Below, piece by piece: positions 10,380 to 42,885 of a stretch of DNA of 64,000 bases. The stretch covers positions 118,854,001 through 118,918,000 of the forward strand of contig NC_042997.1 of assembly GCF_006345805.1 (NCBI RefSeq). The letters are read 5' to 3'. Origin of the DNA: Octopus sinensis (lineage: Eukaryota). The notes under the pieces were generated by a model that was not told where the DNA came from, did not search any database, and saw only the letters and a list, made by a program, of their open reading frames with translations. Position 1 is the stretch's first letter; the number at the start of each line of letters is the position of its first letter. The translations under genes and the position numbers were made by a program.

Positions 10380-11155
10380 ATTCCAAATTTTGGCACAAGG
10401 TCAGCAATTTTAGAGGAAGGGATAAATCGATTACATTGACCTCAGTTTCCATCTGGTACAAATGTTATTGACTCCGGAAGGATGAAAGGCGCAGTCAGCC
10501 TCGGTGGCAGTTGAACTCAGAACATTAAGACTGAAGAAATGCTGATTAGAATTTCTACATCACGGTGAGAGTTCTACCATCTCGCCGACTTAATCGTTTC
10601 TACTCTAGGCACCATGTCCGAAATTTTCGGGAGGTGGGCAGTCGATTAGATGGACCTCAGTATATAACTGGTACTTAATTTATCGACTCCTCAAGGATGA
10701 AAGGCAAAGTCGATCTCGGTGGAATTTGAAGTCAGAACGTAAAGACAGACGAAATACCTATTTCTTTACTACCCAGAAGGGGCTGAACACAGAGAGGACA
10801 AACAAGGACAGACAAACGGATTAAGTCGATTATATCGACCCCAGTGCGCAACTGGTACTTAATTTATCGACCCCGAAAGGATGAAAGGCAAAGATGACCT
10901 CAGCGGAATTTGAACTCATAACGTAACGGCTACCATTTCGCCGGGCATGCTAACATTTTTGCCAGCTTGTCGACTTATCTCGCCGACTTATTTGAGACAT
11001 ATTTGTTTCTACTCTAGGCACAATTTTTGGGGAGCGGGTCAGTCGATTAGATCGACCACAGCACATAATTGTTACTTAATTTATCGACCCCGAAAAGATG
11101 AAAGGCATTTCTGCCAGCTCGCCACCTTATCTCGCCGCCTTATCTCGCCGTCTTA
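10380..11155 (-). mobile_element. Head-to-tail and nested cluster of at least 4 family C SINE copies, one with a Tx1-derived tail (10759-10990)
   Basis: Repeated head AAGGCGGCGAG(CTGGCAGAA), B box GTTCAAATTCC and core GACTTTGCCTTTCATCCTTTCGGGGTCGATAAATTAAGTACCAG on the minus strand, with two different 3' tails. Confidence 0.85.
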
Positions 11156-23892: not shown

Positions 23893-24342
23893 TGCGGAAT
23901 ATAATTGAGCAAATAAGAGAACATAAACTCCAGCTGCTTCGTAATTTCATCGACTTGAATATATCAATTCATAGGGTTCACTGAAATACATTCAGGAATA
24001 GCTTGAAAATCTATGGGATCCCGAACAGTTGTATCAACATGTTTAAGTTTCAGTAAAGGAATTCGCAATGATGCGTGAAGACGAGCAGGAGAGCCGATGA
24101 TATGCTCAAAAGTAAGACGGTGGGTTAGTAGAAACGTTAGCACGCCGGGCGAACTGCTTAGCGGTATTTCGTCTGCCGCACATGTGTTCGTGAAGTAAGA
24201 ATTGCTGTTTCGTGGTGTTAATATTGTTAACAACTGTTGTTTCTTGTTAAACTGTTGAATAACTTAACTGTTGGAGTTTTCAATTGAAAACACTTAGTGC
24301 TTGTGGTAGCACGCGTTGTTCATTCCCCCTTTGGGGGGAAGA

Positions 24343-25871
24343 ATGTCGTCTAGCATGGAGCCTACCGTTGGAGCAGAAATACTTGTTTCTCCTGTTGAGA
24401 GGAGGAAATACATGTCCGGCGAGGAGCCAACTACAGACAAGGAAATAGGGGTTTCCCCCGCTACAAGAAGGAATAGCAGAGAGGATAATATATTTGATAT
24501 TTTTGGAGATGTGTCTGAGAGCTCGTCAGAACTTTCACCAGAAGAGTTTCCGACTTTGCCAGAGAACAAAGGCATTGTGTCGAAGAGAATAATTGAGGTG
24601 CCTAGCATCCAGATAGAACCAAAAAATGGAAAAAAAAGTTTTGCGTTGGCTGCTGGGGGTGGAACCCAGATACTGTCGACGAATAAAAGCGAAATTATGA
24701 AATACAGCAAAATGATGGAAATAAATGACAACAGTGTGAAAATTGAACCTCCGCAAAAGTTATTACAGGAAGAAAAGCAAAAAACAATAATTTTCAAAAC
24801 ATATTGTCTACAAAATAGAAAAATTGAAAGAATGTCAGAAGAGAAAATAGAAAAGTGCTTAAAGCCAATATTGGGCGACGTAGTATTTCTGAGAAGAGGA
24901 AAAAAATTCGGAACGGTGGAAGTAAGGTTCACCAATAAAGAAATAGCACACAAGAACTCAGTGGAAACGTTGAAAACGAACGACGTGGAGTTAATACCCT
25001 ATTATATGGGGATGAGGACGTCGCGAATAAAAATTACAAGGGTCCCGCCAGAGGTCGAACCTATGTGGTTGTTGGCGGCAGTCCTAATCAAAGAGGTAGA
25101 AAAAATTACTCTCCTCCAGGCTACCGCTACGGAAAACCCACGCTGGGATGGTCAAACAATTAATCTTCTCATTCAAGCGGACCCTAAAATAATTCAAACA
25201 ATTCCTGAGACAATTGAGGTATGGGAGGAGAACCTCGTGGTGTTTGTTGAGGGCCGAAAAGCTCGATGTTTTTTATGTGGTCAATTAGGCCACATTCGAA
25301 GGAACTGCAAGGAAAATGAAGAAGAGGAGGAAGAGGAGAAAAAAGACAAAGAGGAAGAAGATAAAGAAGAAACAGATGAGAAAAAAACAACAAACAAAAG
25401 AAACATACAACCAGCAACCCAGCCGAGAGCGGCGACTACTACAGAACAACGACCAAAAAAGACTGCCAGAAGAGAAAAAGAAGAAAAGGCATAATAGCCG
25501 TATACACTAAAGATACTGAGCTCATGAGAGACATTCAACTCATAAAGACTGTAACAAAAATTGATAACCTTTCAGAGGAATTTATCAATTACGACATATA
25601 TGAAGTCTCAAATAAGACTTATAGAATTCTACAAAATAAGTACAGAAAGACTGTATCTTCATTGAGATTAGATTTTAACAAGTCGATATTTCATGGATTA
25701 CCAGCTCCGATCCCGCGAGAAAAGGAAAAGGTGGAGATTCCCCCTCCACCTGATAATTCTGTGTCGGTGGTGAGACGGGATTTTGACAAATCTATTTCCC
25801 AAGACCGTCCACCTCCGACCCTGGATAAAAAAAAGGTGGAGAGTCCCCCTCCACCGGACAATCCTAATTAA
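24343..25871 (+). pseudogene. Tx1 ORF1 (gag-like nucleic-acid chaperone, CCHC zinc knuckle), one frameshift near 25470-25490
   Basis: ORF 24316-25494 contains CFLCGQLGHIRRNC (CX2CX4HX4C) and an acidic/basic tail. ORF 25524-25871 extends upstream in frame (KGIIAVYTKDTELMRD), consistent with a frameshift in the purine run. Confidence 0.85.
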
Positions 25872-25882
25872 ACAGGTAAGTG

Positions 25883-28800
25883 ATGGCTATTCACATTGGT
25901 TGTTTAAATGTTCATGGCCTGTTGTCAAGCTGGAAGCAAGGACGCTCTCTGAATGACATCAGGTCGAGAAATTTGGATGTAATTGTTGCAACGGAAACCC
26001 GGGTGAAGGGGCCAAGAGATCTGCTCCCCCTCCTGAACGGCTACGAGAAATACGTTTCTCCGAGTCGGGCGGGAGGTGGGGGTGGGGTGTTGGTCCTACT
26101 AAAAAGAAACCGGGTAGCCGAGAAAAAGTTGGTTTTTTCTGACCCAGAAGGCAGGCTGGTCGTTCTCGACTTGACATTCAGTTGTGGCAAGACAATCAGG
26201 CTGGTCGCTATTTATGCACCAAACATTATTGGCCCGCAAACTGAATATTTTCGTGGCCTAGGAAAGTTCCTAGCCACGTCGCATTCACTAGTAGTGTTAG
26301 GAGACTCTAATACAATATGTGCAGCACACACAGATTGTGTTGGCTCAAACTCGAACATGAACAGAAAATGTAACACAGGCTTTCGGGATCTGCTAAGTCA
26401 ATTTCAGCTAGCAGATCCATATAGGTTGGAGCACCCGAACACTCCACAGTGGACGTGGTCAAATAGTGACGGGTCTACCAGAACATATCTAGATAGGATT
26501 TTAATTAGAGAAAAATATAAGTCCATAGTTGAGTGTCCACAGATTTTTCTAGTCAGCTACAGTGACCACAAGATGGTTACCTGTAAACTGACGGTAGATA
26601 AGTTGCATAGACAGGGATCTGGCTACTGGAAACTCAATACGTCCCTTTTGGCGATTGAGGAGTACAGAAAGCGGATCAAGATGTTAATACAGAGGGCATT
26701 AACAGGTACCATCATTAATAACAAATGGTGGTACGCCCTAAAAAGAGCCATCAAATATGAGTCTATTAGGTTTAGCATAAGTTTAGCTAAGAAGGGACGT
26801 AAAATAGGAGATGGTCTAGTTAAGGAACTAGAAGAAGCCTGGAGGACTGGTAATACAGACCAAGCGAGGGTGAAAAGACTGGAGTTAAACCAGCATCTTG
26901 AAGCCCACCACATGGGAAGTATTACCAGAGCTAAGTTACGTGCAATGGGAAGTGAAGGAATCAAAGCCGCTGGATGGGCCCGAGTGGTGGAAGCTCGGCA
27001 AGGAAATAGTTCCTCTATTCGGTCTTTGACGAATCAAAATGGTGTCTTGATAAACGAACCCGAGAAAATGTGTGAGGTCTTTCGGGAGTACTTCGCCCAG
27101 CTGTTCGGGGGTGACGGCGGTCCTGGTGGTGGGAGAGCCCTCGAGGACTTTCTTACCGGGCTGCCGTGCCTCTCGGGGTCGGATGCGGAGTCTTGCGAAG
27201 GGCCAATCACACTTGAGGAGGTGATGGAGGCTTTGGCCGATTGTAAAGCGGGTAAGTCACCGGGACTTGATGGTCTTCCGTACGAGCTGTATAAATGTAT
27301 GCCAGACTTGTTCGGGCAACTACTGACTGACGTGTACGCGAACTGGAAACAGAATGGGTTTATCCCCAGATCTGTGCGCCGGGGAGTAGTGACGTTGGTC
27401 AGAAAGGACCCGGACAAGGGGGACGTTCTAGAGAATTTCAGGCCCATCACTCTGTTAAACGCAGAAGTGAAGATTTTGGCCAAGGTTCTAGCAAAAAGGT
27501 TGGCGCGTGTCGCGAATGGTATATTCGGGGAGGCACAGACATGTGCCATCCCAGGCAGAACCATTCAGGATACCCTCCATCTTATTCGCTATACCATAGA
27601 GAGGTTTGGTAATAAATCTGGCAAAGGTGGGGCATTGGTGCATTTGGACCAGTCTAAAGCTTTTGATAGGGTTGACCATCGATACCTAGCGACTGTACTT
27701 GCGCGGTTTGGCCTGGGCCTTGGCTTCCTCAGGTGGTTTATCGCTTTGTACCACAACATTGACTCGATAGTTCGGGTGAATGGTTTCCTTTCGAAGCCGT
27801 TCTGCATCAGACGCTCGGTTCGTCAAGGATGTCCGCTTTCACCACTTTTGTATGTGATGGCTCTCGAGCCATTACTGCAAAGGTTGAGTGGCATCCCGAG
27901 AGAACCAGGACTAGAGGAGTTTGTTACGGCTTTCGCGGATGATATCACTATCAGTGTAACCACAGTGGTACGCCTACGTGAAGTAGGTAAGACTATTGAG
28001 GCTTACGAGGAGGTAGCAGGAGCAAAGATTAACCGGGAAAAGTCGGTCGGCTTGCAGCTCGGCACCTGGGTTGGCAAGTCGATGCCTTCAGACAGTGTTG
28101 TTAGGCGCTGGACGGAGGGACCGGTTAAGTTGCTGGGAGTCTGGTTTGGACCAGGCCTCCAGATAGAGAAGAACTGGACGGAGGTATTGAGCAGGGTGGC
28201 TGCAGTAGTCAAGACTTGGTCTTGGCGGTGGCTATCCCTGAAAGGAGGGCGGAAGTGGCCAATGTGTTTATCGCATCGGTCATTACCTACCGCCTGACTG
28301 TCGTGCCCTGTCCGGATTCGTGGTTGATCAGGTTGGAGAGACAGCTCTTTCGCTTTTTGTGGAAGGGCAGGTCGCCACTTGTGAAACGCTCTGTCTGCTG
28401 TCAAAAGCCTTTAAATGGAGGTTTAGGGATGCCTTGGTTAATGATGCGCAGACATGCGTTGAGGTTGAGGCACCTCTGGATTCTCCTGGATAGTGAACGG
28501 GTGTGGTCTCCGCTGGCCAGACAAATGTTCCCTGAGTTCAAGAGTTTTTGCGAACAGGAAGCCTGGTGTTCTCGTAGACCGAGGTCGAGTGAGTGGCATA
28601 AAGAGTGCCGTAAGGCCCTCTTGCTGTTCCGGCGCTCGGGCAACGCCAGCGGTGGGGGTTCCACACGGATTTTATATAGTGGGTTGGTAGAGTCTGAATG
28701 CGACGATGGCCTGGGGTCGACTCTAGGTCTCGGATTTATTCAACTGGACAGCTTGTTTCATCGTACATTCGGGTTGAGAACGTTGGACAACTTCCAAAAG

Positions 28801-29283
28801 TCCTTAACCTGGCAATGCTACAGAGGTGCCTTGCCCGTTTGGGATAAGCTCGCAAGACATGGTAAACGTCAGTCGCCGACCTGTCCAAGATGCGGTGGGG
28901 ACAGGGAAACCGTCCCTCACGCTATTGTTCAGTGTCCGGAGATAACTGAAATGTGGGCTTATGCTGAACATCTGTTGTCCGGCGAAGGAAGAGTACGGCT
29001 GTCGACTGAGTCAATTATAAAAATTGACCCACCGGGAGTTCTAACGAACGAAGGTAAGAATTGTTTTCTCACGGTTGTAGCAATAGCAAAAGCGGCTGTA
29101 TGGAATACTAGGATAAAAGGAATTAAGACAGGCAACTTTATCTCTGGTGACAATTTACGATCCTTTTTTTCTTTTCATTTGAAAAAGAAACTGTGGCTGG
29201 AGAAGAGGTGTCTGTCAGAGTGTACGTTCCAAAAGAGATGGAAGTATGTTGCACGAGTGTTGTGCGTGCAAGGAACCGTGTGA
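25883..29283 (+). pseudogene. Tx1 ORF2: apurinic endonuclease, reverse transcriptase and C-terminal zinc finger; one frameshift near 28245
   Basis: APE motifs GCLNVHGL, ATET, IYAP, GDSN, LDRI, SDH; GYWKLN linker; RT motifs KSPGLDGL, NFRPITLLN, LDQSKAFDRV, RQGCPLSPLLY, FADD; CPRC..ETVPHAIVQC. ORFs 25880-28297 and 28216-29283 join at LSLKG/RAEVAN. Confidence 0.93.
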
Positions 29284-30299
29284 ATAGACGAGGAAAAAAA
29301 AAAAAGGAAAAATAAAAAGGTATCAGCGGTAGATCGGGGCTTGTGGGATCGGAGCGTAACTTGATCATCGCTTCATTTGTATTGTTTTTGTACTGTGTAT
29401 TCCATTCGATTTTTATGTATTGTATTTTATTTTTGATGTCACATTTATGTAAAATCATATCGATTCACTGATCCCATCAGTTGTACTGTCCATATCTATG
29501 TTTGGCCCCCGGTGGGCAATAAAGAAATTGGTATTTCGTCTGCGGTCATGTTCTGAGTTCAAATTCCGCCGAGGTCGACTTTGCCTTTCATCCTTTCGGG
29601 GTCGATTAAATAAGTACCAGTTACACACTGAGGTCGATATAATCGACTTAATCCGTTTGTCTGTCCTTGTTTGTCCTCTCTGTGTTTAGCCCTTTGTGGG
29701 TAGTAAAGAAATATATATGCTCAAAAGTGCAACCGCAGGGAGATAGCGTTCCTACTTGCTGTTTCTACTCCACATAACGACTGATTTCATAATGTGGAAA
29801 GCAATGGCTAGCACCAATTTTTTGAATAACGTGGGCACTGCGCAAACTGACGGATTTGCATTTCGTAGACGAGTTGGTATCACTAAGCACTACTATATAT
29901 ATATATTTACATACACACAGGAGTAACGCAGTTTGCAGCAGGCGTTGGATATTTAGAAATGTTTTTAATTCTTTCTTAAACTGCAAATAATATAAATTTT
30001 AAGAAAAAATAAAGTTGTCTGAAGTTTTACATTATACTGCAATATTTCACACAAAACCCAGCTAGCAACATTACTTCTACAAGGAACTGGTTTTAACTTC
30101 GAAATATTGAAATACTAAGTAAAACTACAAGTATTGTATTATTTTTTATAACTTAAATTCCTTGAAATAACCAAACATATATGCATACATATACATTTAT
30201 AAAGGATTAAAGGCCAGTTTCCTGGATTCTGTAGAAACTGTAGGGGACGCCGATTGATCGCATGGTCCCTCAGTTTCTCCAGCTGCGTGGATTGGAAAA

Positions 30300-30471: not shown

Positions 30472-31942
30472 GGTGAACGCGTACATCGCGTCCATCATCT
30501 ACTACCGCCTGACCGTCGTACCTTGTCCCGACCCTACCATCACCAAACTAGAACGCATCCTCTTCCGCTTCTTGTGGAAAGGATGCGTCCCGATGGTCAG
30601 GCGATCCATTTGCTGTCAACACCCGTTAAAAGGAGGGCTGGGCATGCCGTGGTTGATGATGCGCAGACACGCGCTGAGACTGCGACATCTCCGGCTCTAT
30701 GTAGACGACGGTGAACAGGTGTGGTCGCCGTTTGTGAGGCACGCATTCCCGCAACTTGTCTCCATGACCGAACTACAGTCGTGGATCAAAAAGAGGCCGA
30801 AGAAGGGCGAATGGCACCGCGAGTGTCGCGTTGCTCTCAAGCAACTCTGCCGTCCCGGGTCGACCTTGAGTGACTTCAACACAACCAAAGCATTCTATAG
30901 GGGATTAGTGGAGGGGAGGTACGACGACGAGCTCGGGGCAAACCTGGGCGTCGACGAGGAATACCTGACCCGCCTGTTTCAAACGACTTTCGGCCCGGGA
31001 CCTATGGACAACTTCCAGAGATCCCTGGCCTGGCGGTGCTACCGAGAAGCGCTACCCGTTCGGGATAAGCTCTATAGGCATGGCTCGAGAAACACGGGGC
31101 CGACCTGCCCGAGATGCGGGCAGAGCGACGAAACCGCTCTGCACGCAATCGTGCAGTGTCCAGCAATTTCCCACCTGTGGGCTTATGTCGAACGACTGCT
31201 GTCACGTGTGGGACGTGTCGGTTTATCAGCCGAGTCTATCGTTAATATCGTCACGCCTCCTTCCTTCAAACGGGAAGGAAGAGCTATTTTTATCATACTT
31301 GTGGCTATGGCGAAAGAATGTATCTGGTGGACGCGTCTGAAAGGATTAGAGACAAACACTTTCCTCTCTGGTCAATCTCTCATCAACTTCTTCAAGTATC
31401 ACTTGAAGAAAAAAGTGAGAGTAGAGAGGCAAGTTTTGTCTAGTGAATGTTTTAAAAAAGATGGGTGAATGTAGCAAGGATGGCACGTATGAATGACGAA
31501 GCCACCTTGACTATGATTCTATGAACCGTAAAAATTAATACAGAGAGTTGCTTATTTGCAAAAAAAAAAAGAAATATAACATGTGACTTCATTGACCGAG
31601 GTTACCGTGGTCTTTTCCGTAGGCTTTTCTTTCCACGGGTAAACCTCACCTGTCCTCCCCTTTACACTTCATATTGACATTTCTGTGATAACGATCCCTA
31701 TTGATCAATTATTTTTTTCCTCTCCCCCCTTTTTTTAACCCCCCCTTTTTTTGTCCTTTCTCTCCTTTTACGATCCCTTTTGATCGACCCCCCCTTTTTT
31801 ATTTTATTTTATTTGTTATTTTATTATTATTATTATTATTATTATTTTATTTTTTAAATTTTTTTTTTAAACCTTCAAAAGAAAAGCTCTACCTTGTAAT
31901 TTGTTCTATCTGTGTGCAGCCCTGTGTGGCTAATAAAGAAAC
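30470..31942 (+). mobile_element. 5'-truncated Tx1-clade LINE (second family) inserted in (TCTA)n
   Basis: 332-aa ORF homologous to the ORF2 C-terminus of the 24-29 kb element (GGLGMPWLMMRRHALRLRHL, CPRC..ETALHAIVQC). 3' end AGCC-CTGTGT-GGCT-AATAAAGAAAC; (TCTA)n on both sides (30433-30470, 31945-31981). Confidence 0.92.
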
Positions 31943-31943
31943 A

Positions 31944-31981
<38 letters not shown>

Positions 31982-35457: not shown

Positions 35458-36010
35458 GTCTTTAATTGATCACAAAGACTTAAGACACGGAAGACTGAAT
35501 CAGAGGTCGAGATAAAATTCACAAAAATACAGGTGGAGTATACATCGATCAAAGTGTGACACAACAATATTAAGTAATATAACAAAGGATATATAAACAG
35601 AAGTTAGAGAAATGAATAATTAATAAATGAACTACCCAAGATCGGGTTAGACCATTTAGAGTAATTAGGGTTCACGTCGCGTAAAAGACTCGATGCCTGG
35701 GAATTGCTCTCTTCCAGTTTCTTTTCTACTATTTAGAAAAGCATACTCAGAGTAGATCCATTCAGTCTCACCAGCCTTGCCGCTTACGTCCACCTTTTGG
35801 TAAACACACATGAAAGCAAAACCGCCCACTCTACCCTCACGTTTCTCTGCAAATAATATTTGAAACAACTGACGGGGTATTGAACAGATAGGAAAGGGCC
35901 GGTCTTGTAACGGGCCCACCATACAGCCTCTTATACCACAGCCACTAAGCAAAGAAACATCTGCCTTCCAAGTTTGCTAAAGAAAGGCGTTACACCGATC
36001 TTCACACTAC
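35458..36010 (-). mobile_element. Degraded 3' end of another Tx1-clade LINE
   Basis: Minus strand GRQMFLCLVAVV*EAVWWAR...FLS...CFKYYLQRNVRVE aligns by eye with GRAIFIILVAMAKECIWWTR...FFKYHLKKKVRVE of the 30470 copy. Tail GTCTTTGTGATCAATTAAAGAC followed by (TTA)n. Confidence 0.7.
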
Positions 36011-36054
36011 TGAACAATTGAAATAATAACCATGATGATAATGATGACGATAAT

Positions 36055-36510: not shown

Positions 36511-37060
36511 AATCCTTCCTCTTATAGGCACAAGGCATGAAATTTTAGTGGAGGGGGCCATTCGATTAATTTGACCCAGTACACAATTGATACTTATTTT
36601 ATCGACCCTAAAAGGATGGAAGGTAAAGTTAACCACGGTGGAATTTGAACTCAGAACATATAGACGGGGGAAATGCTGTTAAGAATTTCCTCCGGGATGC
36701 TAACAAATCTGCCAGCTCAGCGCTTTTATAATACTAATACTAATACTAATAATAACAACAACAATAATGATAATAATAATAATAATAATATAATAATAAT
36801 AATAATAAATCCTTCCTCTTATAGGCACAAGGCATGAAATTTTAGTGGAGGGGGCCATTCGATTAATTTGACCCAGTACACAATTGATACTTATTTTATC
36901 GACCCTAAAAGGATGGAAGGTAAAGTTAACCACGGTGGAATTTGAACTCAGAACATATAGACGGGGGAAATGCTGTTAAGAATTTCCTCCGGGATGCTAA
37001 CAAATCTGCCAGCTCAGCGCTTTTATAATACTAATACTAATACTAATAATAACAACAACA
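36511..37060 (-). repeat. Identical tandem duplication (period ~297 bp) of a family C SINE plus its TAA flank
   Basis: 36511-36760 equals 36808-37057 across the SINE. Confidence 0.9.
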
Positions 37061-41944: not shown

Positions 41945-42885
41945 TCATTAGTCTGGCAGATGAACAGGGGCGTGATTTACTCGAGCCTGAAAAGATATGT
42001 AAGGCCTTTCATCAACAATTTGCCCGACTGTTCGGGACAACTGGTGGTTCAGAAGGCAAAGTGGACGTTAGTGCCTACCTGCATAGCTTGCCACCACTCT
42101 CAGCGACAGAGGCGGAGTGTTGTGAAAGAGCCGTCACAGCCGCGGACGGACGGGATGCGATGGCAGGCTGCGCGGGAGACAAGTCGGCAGGCTTGGATGG
42201 TCTGCCCTACGGACTTTACTTTCATACGTTAGACTTGTTTAGAGGTATCTTGGCAGCTCTCTACTGCAACTAGCACCAAAACGGGATTATCCCCGTCTCT
42301 GTAAAGCGAGATGCGCCGGCACTACTAAAGAAATATCCAAACAAGTAGAATGTCATAGATAACTTCAGGCCCATCACCCTTCTCCATGCAGATTTGAAGA
42401 TTTTGGTCAATGTGTTAGCCAAGATGTTTGCGCTTGTCATAGGGGAAACTGGCCGAGAAGACGCAAACGTGCGCTGTGCCAGGTAGACGTATCCCTGACA
42501 ACCACCATCCGATGCGCTGCATCAAACACAGTGTAGTTTGGATCACTCGAACGCTTTCGCTAGGGTAGACCATCGCTACTTGGAGGCTGTCCTTAGAACG
42601 GCTGGCTTAGGTCCGTCTCCCGCGGTAGAATCGCTGCTTTATACAGCACCATCCGCTTGGTAGTTCGCTTAGATGATCATCTGTCCAGTCCATTTGACAT
42701 CATGCGTTCGGTTCGTCAACGATACCCCTTCTCGTCGCTTTTGTGCGTATTGACTTTTGAATCACTACTGCGGTTGCTGTCGACGCTGAATGGCATATGC
42801 GGACGACGTCACCGTCATTGTGTCGAGTCACAGGCATATAGACCTGGTCGTCGAGACACTAAGAGAATGCAAAGCGGAAAACGGA
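41945..42885 (+). mobile_element. Degraded internal Tx1 ORF2 (RT) fragment
   Basis: YLHSLPPLSATEAECCERAVT, DKSAGLDGLPYGLY, NFRPITLLHADLKIL, AFARVDHRYL, MRSVRQRYPFSSLL and AYADD parallel the 27100-28000 region of the intact element. Confidence 0.85.

What the first reader, a model, noticed from the sequence alone, without database searches (positions are those of the whole stretch)
24100..29728. Tx1 LINE inserted site-specifically inside a SINE that carries the LINE's own tail: a candidate self-targeting LINE/SINE system
Seen: nested structure TSD1 (ATATGCTCAAAAGT, 24100-13) - SINE head - TSD2 (GGTATTTCGTCTGC, 24163-76) - 5.35-kb Tx1 LINE - TSD2 (29530-43) - SINE B box, core and tail - TSD1 (29715-28). 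The insertion falls between the SINE's Pol III A and B boxes. The SINE's last ~40 nt (TGTCCTCTCTGTGTTTAGCCCTTTGTGGGTAGTAAAGAAAT) match the LINE's 3' end (TGTCCATATCTATGTTTGGCCCCCGGTGGGCAATAAAGAAAT). Established: Tx1-clade APE endonucleases are often sequence-specific (Tx1L into a DNA transposon, Keno into U2, Mutsu into 5S, Dewa in tRNA arrays, Kibi/Koshi in microsatellites), and SINEs borrow LINE 3' ends. Inference: the LINE mobilises a SINE that spreads new copies of the LINE's own target site, so the parasite builds safe-haven landing pads for its driver, and the insertion breaks that SINE copy's promoter. I do not know of this loop being described in this lineage.
Basis: partly seen in the sequence, partly recalled or inferred. 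Interest (0 to 1): 0.88.

Follow-up and report, generated by a model that had tools for sequence, protein, structure and literature searches.

The report
LINE aimed at one SINE base
In what is likely an octopus genome, a young family of long jumping genes inserts at one exact base of a very abundant short repeat, and that short repeat carries a similar tail and piles into the same base of its relatives, so it is likely copied by the same enzyme lineage while it supplies most of the landing sites.

Summary
The nesting is real and the targeting holds genome-wide. Of the first 100 listed of 133 exact LINE-tail matches, 99 sit at the same SINE base; the other is a SINE copy. The family is young, and 3 of 40 fetched copies keep both ORFs open. 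The tailed SINE hosts 50 of 61 inspected copies. It also enters this site itself: 15 of 43 randomly sampled loci, with inserted units younger than untailed hosts in 17 of 19 pairs.

The simple loop is only partly supported. The tail is shared by many sister LINE families. The SINE subtype at the site has a tail closer to a sister family, and its junction differs from this LINE's. The '14-bp TSD' is partly lineage-borne, likely an RNA leader. A second LINE with an ORF1-only derivative targets another site 33 bases upstream.

Verdict: new variant of Tx1-type targeting, closest to crocodilian Tx1-Mar/SINEU, with the SINE's own head as target. Tx1 membership was not tested by tree. The scan noted this system before, in this and another genome.

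The parts
24100..24113 (+). TSD1, left copy (host SINE insertion)
   Evidence: exact match to 29715-29728, only two copies in the window
24114..24162 (+). Host SINE head, with an A-box-like stretch at about 24126-24136 and the left arm of a predicted hairpin that pairs with the target
   Evidence: sequence; hairpin predicted on a younger copy, L062; tRNA origin recalled, not shown
24130..24143 (+). Site 2: second target in the SINE head, empty here; used elsewhere by another LINE family, its ORF1-only derivative and some SINE copies
24163..24176 (+). Site 1 / TSD2, left copy; positions 1-7 follow the host, later positions often follow the LINE lineage
24177..29529 (+). Full-length Tx1-like LINE, 5353 bp, young family (most full-length copies 98-99.6% identical to this one)
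24343..25871 (+). ORF1 with CCHC zinc knuckle; one frameshift near 25483 in this copy
   Evidence: open 520-aa frame in L133 and L158
25883..29283 (+). ORF2: APE endonuclease, reverse transcriptase, C-terminal zinc domain; one frameshift near 28243 in this copy
   Evidence: open 1134-codon frame in 6 of 40 fetched copies
29488..29529 (+). LINE tail: short stem-loop (29505-29517), AATAAA (29518-29523), no poly(A)
29530..29543 (+). TSD2, right copy = intact site 1
29544..29663 (+). Host SINE: B-box-like stretch (29555-29567) and central core shared with other SINE families of the genome
29664..29714 (+). SINE tail homologous to the tails of this LINE and of several sister LINE families
29715..29728 (+). 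TSD1, right copy
10640..10930 (-). Second case in the window: a tailed SINE unit inserted at site 1 of an older, untailed SINE
   Evidence: inserted unit 2 of 61 differences, host 6 of 64

Best explanation
A young Tx1-like LINE family inserts at one fixed base in the head of an abundant SINE superfamily, likely because its endonuclease nicks there, and a SINE bearing a Tx1-type tail both supplies most of these sites and inserts into them itself, likely using the ORF2 protein of this LINE lineage. Inferred steps: (1) ORF2 nicks the bottom strand at the start of site 1 and the top strand about 14 bases further on. (2) The LINE RNA likely starts with a short target-like leader; its cDNA anneals to the overhang, which would explain the uniform 5' junctions, the many full-length copies and the lineage-borne letters in the left 'TSD'. 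(3) The SINE RNA is likely bound through the tail stem-loop and primed through a few read-through bases; RNAs ending in the site sequence would pair with nicked site 1, and their internal copy of the site would close the 5' junction, giving headless units in tandem behind the host's head. (4) SINE RNAs with other 3' flanks, or carried by sister LINEs, land elsewhere and seed new sites. Some arrays then grow by local duplication.
For: LINE side. 30 of 30 fetched 3' junctions and 30 of 30 5' junctions at site 1. 133 exact tails, 129 matches of the overlapping tail-plus-site pattern; the 7 of the first 100 places that lacked it were all read: 6 at the site with a point change or short duplication, 1 a SINE. 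Hosts differ in subfamily and flank; a separate outer repeat of 10 or more bases was scored in 18 of 30 full-length copies, a few of them probably chance, so this is not one composite that was copied. Truncated and internally deleted copies also end at the site (L008, L020, L139). Leader: position-14 T in 11 of 14 copies of one haplotype group against 6 of 30 others; a two-base variant shared by three copies whose right-hand copies lack it. SINE side. 32,807 of 52,146 exact tails are followed by AGGT. In 800 kb of evenly spaced sample, 24 of 62 tails and 15 of 43 loci have a site-1 junction. Against untailed hosts the inserted unit is less diverged in 17 of 19 pairs (4.2% v 8.7%, p=0.0007) and the head follows the host (9.8%). 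No unit carried its own head behind the site in any locus held (0 matches). No other LINE family with the SINE's A junction at site 1 turned up: 3 of 53 hits, one of them an older member of this LINE family. Precedents for RNA-target pairing: SART1Bm and R1Bm (PMC7265360, passages), R2 5' leader (PMC6895275, passages).
Against: The tail is generic to a radiation of sister LINEs at 63-78% ORF2 identity with other targets. None of 40 non-CAAT SINE tails is closest to this LINE, and the CAAT type seldom shows the site junction (1 of 18). The SINE junction letters differ from the young LINE's. In 36 of 43 sampled loci the outermost SINE unit is not at site 1, whereas the LINE is nearly always there, so either other enzymes move the SINE or this one is laxer in trans. 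For tailed hosts the age contrast is not significant (14 lower, 7 higher of 24, p=0.10), and units in some arrays share private variants (L233, L181), so the 63% count overstates independent insertions. The divergence test uses a tailed-SINE-dominated reference and may inflate host values. One left TSD copies a host-specific letter at position 13 (L130), so the leader does not always win. One search's pattern would miss LINE tails of other shapes. Tailed hosts are not clearly enriched among LINE sites (50 of 61 v 36 of 49 free sites).
Confidence: 0.62

Rival explanations
1. The LINE is a late squatter. It targets the SINE site, but the SINE is moved mainly by sister Tx1-like families, extinct or unseen, one of which had the same specificity. 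The tail likeness reflects shared ancestry of all these tails, so no loop runs through this family.
For: Main SINE subtype is closer to the L280/L281 family tail. Junction letters differ. About 130 LINE copies against over 52,000 exact SINE tails. Many sister families exist, and a second LINE targets site 2. Kojima reached a several-carrier reading for SINEU (PMC4494074, section 16).
Against: The one pattern search for such a sister found none. The L280-type copies seen have other targets. An older member of this family has the A junction (L349). Older members at 87-92% identity already sit at site 1, overlapping the SINE's ages.
Confidence: 0.27
2. SINE units at site 1 arise mostly without targeted insertion: a few founder dimers were copied as whole transcripts or expanded by slippage and unequal exchange. 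Only the LINE is targeted.
For: Arrays with shared private variants (L233, L181). The junction letter is fixed regardless of head type. No run of four T in the one dimer checked, so read-through is possible. No significant age contrast for tailed hosts.
Against: Hosts belong to several SINE families with different 3' ends and are older than the inserted unit, with the head matching the host. SINE copies in unique DNA often have TSDs that begin with the same GGTA (5 of the 12 AGGT-other loci).
Confidence: 0.08
3. LINE plus SINE moved as one composite, or spread by segmental duplication, so the shared site reflects one ancestral event.
For: Host letter C or G at position 1 is uneven across LINE haplotypes (14 of 14 C in one group, 16 of 30 in the rest).
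Against: Host SINEs differ in subtype, tail and flank, and many have their own outer TSD, while the LINEs are about 99% identical. 5'-truncated copies use the same site.
Confidence: 0.02

Closest known systems
Tx1-Mar LINEs and SINEU-1/2/3 of crocodilians (Kojima 2015, PMC4494074; passages and sections 14-16 read)
   Same: LINE and SINE share a fixed site inside an interspersed repeat; two preferred sites in one target used by different LINE families; tandem SINE insertions around a TSD; partnership inferred from shared target and age.
   Different: There the target is a third element (Mariner-N4_AMi) and preference is 13-90% for the SINEs. Here the target is the head of the SINE superfamily itself, the LINE is about 99% specific, young and in part intact, and nested SINE units lose their own head.
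Xenopus Tx1 in Tx1D; Keno in U2; Kibi and Koshi in microsatellites (as summarised in PMC4494074, introduction passage; the Tx1L endonuclease paper PMC85248 was not held)
   Same: APE-type LINE with strict sequence targeting; sister families with different targets, including (TATC)n and (TC)n here.
   Different: None of the targets named in the passages read is a SINE; the target here is a retroposon that carries a tail like the LINE's.
R2, R1Bm and SART1Bm target-complementary RNA (PMC6895275 and PMC7265360, passages)
   Same: Target-derived bases at the RNA ends proposed to pair with the cut target and make junctions precise.
   Different: Those are rDNA or telomere elements, and R2 has another endonuclease type. 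Here the pairing is inferred only from junction letters.
Octopus tRNA-derived SINEs OK/OR1/OR2 and Nin-DC/Deu-core SINEs (named in PMC4824008 and PMC4758252, passages; likeness of this core to Nin-DC is recalled)
   Same: Head with A/B-box-like stretches, shared central core, exchangeable LINE-type tails.
   Different: No Tx1 partner or targeting for them appeared in the passages seen; identity with a named family was not tested.

Membership tests
Tx1 clade (L1 group) non-LTR retrotransposon | ORF1 with CCHC zinc knuckle ahead of ORF2 | tested here: met
   PF00098, E 1e-4, above cut-off
Tx1 clade (L1 group) non-LTR retrotransposon | ORF2 with APE endonuclease, RT and C-terminal zinc domain, nearer to L1 than to R2 | tested here: met
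   PF03372, PF00078, PF13966; best solved match L1 ORF2p E 1.9e-64, R2 1.6e-20
Tx1 clade (L1 group) non-LTR retrotransposon | RT groups with named Tx1 elements in a tree | not testable with these tools
   No labelled Tx1 reference was obtained: the 20 homologues looked up were unnamed, hypothetical or 'exonuclease III'. The label Tx1 rests on anatomy and recall.
Target-specific LINE (Kojima's rule: over 20% of flanks in one sequence type) | Fixed target sequence across independent copies | tested here: met
   99 of the first 100 tail matches; 61 of 62 distinct loci read
Tx1-Mar/SINEU-type partnership | LINE and SINE share the insertion site | tested here: met
   15 of 43 sampled SINE loci, age contrast in 17 of 19 pairs
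Tx1-Mar/SINEU-type partnership | Target is an unrelated DNA transposon; SINE has an snRNA-derived head | tested here: not met
   Target is the SINE head itself; no Rfam family matched the SINE
Stringent LINE-SINE pair (shared 3' tail) | SINE tail closest to the partner LINE's tail | tested here: inconclusive
   Closest for 7 (plus 3 tied) of 13 CAAT tails, for 0 of 40 others, among 13 reference tails
Stringent LINE-SINE pair (shared 3' tail) | Trans-mobilisation by the LINE's ORF2 | not testable with these tools
   Needs a cell assay
tRNA-derived SINE | tRNA-like head with Pol III A and B boxes | tested here: inconclusive
   Box-like stretches by eye; ARAGORN 0 genes, Rfam no real match
tRNA-derived SINE | Short, non-coding, high copy, variable TSDs, LINE-type tail | tested here: met
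   About 230 bp, 52,146 exact tails, TSDs of 8-22 bases where found
Nin-DC/Deu-core SINE superfamily | Central domain homologous to Nin-DC | not tested
   Recalled likeness only; no reference sequence at hand

The most novel reading that the evidence does not exclude
A closed, RNA-steered loop. One LINE lineage moves a SINE that both scatters new copies of the LINE's target and, once nested, transcribes the target into its own 3' end, so that site choice is inherited through short target tags on the RNAs rather than set by the endonuclease alone. The SINE head has become a self-renewing platform shared by at least two autonomous LINEs, an ORF1-only parasite and the SINE itself.
Probability: 0.33. 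Interest if true: 0.86.

Novelty: new variant of a known kind. Interest (0 to 1): 0.67.

Why it matters
Known Tx1-type targets are host RNA genes, microsatellites or other transposons. A target that is itself a passenger of the same enzyme lineage ties a LINE's supply of sites to the SINE it may carry, and could help explain why SINEs fill about a tenth of an octopus genome (11.6% in PMC13282606, passage). The family is young, has naturally intact copies and near-total specificity, and sits in a radiation of sisters at 63-78% identity with different targets. That makes it a ready system to separate endonuclease recognition from RNA-target pairing, an open question for site-specific APE LINEs and for their use in targeted insertion.

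Tried and rejected
The representative search and the Atlas added no Tx1 label; two clusters are Argonauta hians hypothetical proteins (48-55% identity to the query). Rfam and ARAGORN gave no support for the head's origin. A tree of 5' ends was star-like and distorted by three copies with deletions or gaps; I used haplotype columns instead, leaving out L053, L054 and copies without a fetched 3' end (44 rows). The Fisher tests on them ignore shared descent. No RNA holder on record was listed. Contigs of four runs under four organism codes cover the LINE and two span a junction, but cannot show expression or an empty allele of this locus. An automatic stem finder picked the expected tail hairpin in 10 of 14 tails (one of them shifted) and another pairing in 4, so the hairpin is suggestive only. 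Rejected: composite or segmental spread; chance. Ten paper searches showed no report of a SINE-targeting Tx1 or of this octopod system. Subscription papers, Repbase entries and the supplements of PMC4494074 and PMC13282606 were not seen and may hold it.

Full report
Observation. The two repeat pairs are exact and occur only twice each in the window. Between the inner pair lies a 5353-bp LINE with ORF1 (zinc knuckle) and ORF2 (APE endonuclease, RT, zinc domain). This copy has one frameshift in each ORF. The SINE and LINE ends agree at 32 of 41 columns. The host is likely an octopod: the only named close homologues are Argonauta proteins, and I recall the SINE from octopus sequences. The labels 'Tx1', 'tRNA-derived' and 'Nin-DC' come from anatomy and recall, not from a call.

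Is the LINE targeted? Yes. A search with the last 150 bases, which exclude the target, gave 338 candidates, 40 scored, all identical to the query; all 30 fetched continue with [G/C]GTATTT in the SINE. All 30 fetched 5' ends follow the same SINE position. An exact 31-base tail occurs 133 times and the overlapping tail-plus-site pattern 129 times. Of the first 100 places, 93 are in both lists (compared by eye). The other 7 were read: 6 are at the site with a point change or short duplication, 1 is a SINE whose tail happens to equal the LINE's. Over all loci held, 61 of 62 distinct tail loci are at the site. Chance is about 3e-5 per base and strand. Hosts differ in subtype and flank, and 18 of 30 full-length copies show a separate outer repeat, a few probably by chance. 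Of 40 fetched stretches 30 start at the LINE's first or second base, 6 have an open ORF2 and 3 have both ORFs open. Members at 87-92% identity use the same site, so the habit is older than the recent burst.

The inner TSD is not a plain duplication. In 46 copies with both ends, agreement by position was 44, 45, 45, 45, 45, 46, 46, 40, 42, 39, 44, 43, 45, 24. Three copies in different hosts share a two-base variant on the left only. Position-14 T marks 11 of 14 copies of one haplotype group and 6 of 30 others (shared descent not corrected). I infer a short target-like leader on the LINE RNA that anneals at the 5' junction, as proposed for R2 (PMC6895275, passages). One copy (L130) duplicates a host-specific letter at position 13, so the top-strand cut likely lies near 14 and either strand's letters can be kept. 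The same haplotype group lies only in C-type hosts (14 of 14 v 16 of 30); age or RNA read-through could each explain that.

Does the SINE use the site? Of 52,146 exact SINE tails, 32,807 are followed by AGGT. That count includes tandem units and non-SINE sites that begin with GGTA. In 80 evenly spaced 10-kb stretches, 24 of 62 tails and 15 of 43 loci have a site-1 junction. Among 47 arrays found in all loci held, 43 could be scored. Where the downstream unit belongs to an untailed SINE family, the upstream tailed unit is less diverged in 17 of 19 (1 higher, 1 tie; 4.2% v 8.7%, p=0.0007), and the head follows the host. Where it is tailed, the contrast is not significant (14 v 7 of 24, p=0.10). 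No inserted unit kept its own head, which fits 5' joining by homology and leaves a B box behind the host's A box. Some arrays share private variants and grew by local duplication. The window has a second case at 10640-10930.

Is this LINE the carrier? Unsettled. The genome holds a radiation of related LINEs at 63-78% ORF2 identity with similar tails and other fixed targets, and an ORF1-only family with a like tail. Against 13 reference tails, CAAT-type SINE tails are mostly nearest this LINE (7 alone and 3 tied of 13), the other 40 never. C-type tails show an AGGT-class junction in 1 of 18, T-type tails in 27 of 39. The SINE junction is A then G almost always (330 WCGT), also behind C-type heads, while the LINE has T and keeps the host's letter. 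I read the fixed G as carried on the SINE RNA, as target-like bases aid priming in SART1Bm and R1Bm (PMC7265360, passages). In favour of this lineage: a pattern built to catch LINE-type tails with the A junction found only 3 of 53 hits at site 1, and of the 2 inspected one is an older member of this family and the other showed no LINE ORF. That pattern would miss other tail shapes. The tailed SINE hosts 50 of 61 LINE copies and provides 36 of 49 free sites in the sample, so it does supply the sites, without clear enrichment.

A second site. Most of the 53 hits are a 1.75-kb ORF1-only element at a site 33 bases upstream, beside the A-box-like stretch, in head-to-tail arrays with a 14-base target-like start that again varies by lineage. 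A separate complete LINE family ends at that site in 2 places found. Three of about 16 such loci adjoin a copy of this LINE, far above expectation; I have no tested explanation.

Comparison. The closest published system is Tx1-Mar with SINEU in crocodilians (PMC4494074; passages and sections 14-16): shared sites in a repeat, two sites, tandem SINEs. There the target is an unrelated DNA transposon. Ten searches showed no SINE-targeting Tx1. The Octopus vulgaris repeat paper lists 13 recently active L1-Tx1 families and never uses the word 'target' (PMC13282606, passages). PMC4758252 and PMC4824008 were seen as passages. Repbase, subscription papers and supplements were not seen. Earlier notes of this scan describe the same system here and in another genome; they are not independent support.

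Verdict. Observation confirmed. LINE targeting is shown (about 0.98). SINE insertion at the same site is well supported (about 0.88). Carriage by this LINE lineage is likely but open (about 0.62 for the whole model). New variant of a known kind; interest 0.67.

Noticed in passing
window 30473-31944 (+): 5'-truncated sister LINE (52% ORF2 identity) inserted in a (TATC)n run, with a related stem-loop tail; the same tail before (TATC)n recurs in L200.
   Followed up: partly
window 41950-42788 (+) and 35754-36011 (-): Further decayed LINE ORF2 fragments, 43-51% and 36% identical to this ORF2.
   Followed up: no
window 36562-36704 and 36859-37001 (-): Two near-identical copies of an old SINE with the same flank, 297 bases apart: a local tandem duplication.
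   Followed up: no
window 25663-25865: Internal 98-base repeat at 73% identity at the end of ORF1, coding a twice-repeated proline-rich motif.
   Followed up: no
L301-L341, L351, L352: ORF1-only 1.75-kb element in head-to-tail arrays at SINE site 2, a complete LINE family at the same site, and 3 of about 16 loci directly adjoining this LINE. G000:C6 near 45.2 Mb stacks the site-2 LINE, three ORF1-only units, this LINE and a nested SINE in one host.
   Followed up: partly
L251-L275: Another ORF1-only family, older (79-88% to the query copy), with a SINE-like tail and at least three recurring targets in other repeats.
   Followed up: partly
L276-L300, L342-L348, L176: Radiation of sister LINE families, each with its own recurring target, one of them (TC)n; three full-length copies show 12-20-base TSDs.
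   Followed up: partly
L228, L013 and similar hosts: The 'untailed' SINE families end in a stem-loop with the same CTTGT loop and a changed but still pairing stem, so they may also depend on this LINE group.
   Followed up: partly
window ORF2, endonuclease motif near 26300: The usual GDFN motif reads GDSN in all 29 copies where it was found, while three sister copies aligned keep F.
   Followed up: no
SINE head, window 24150-24176: Site 1 lies in the right arm of a long predicted hairpin in the intact SINE; whether DNA structure aids nicking is unknown.
   Followed up: no
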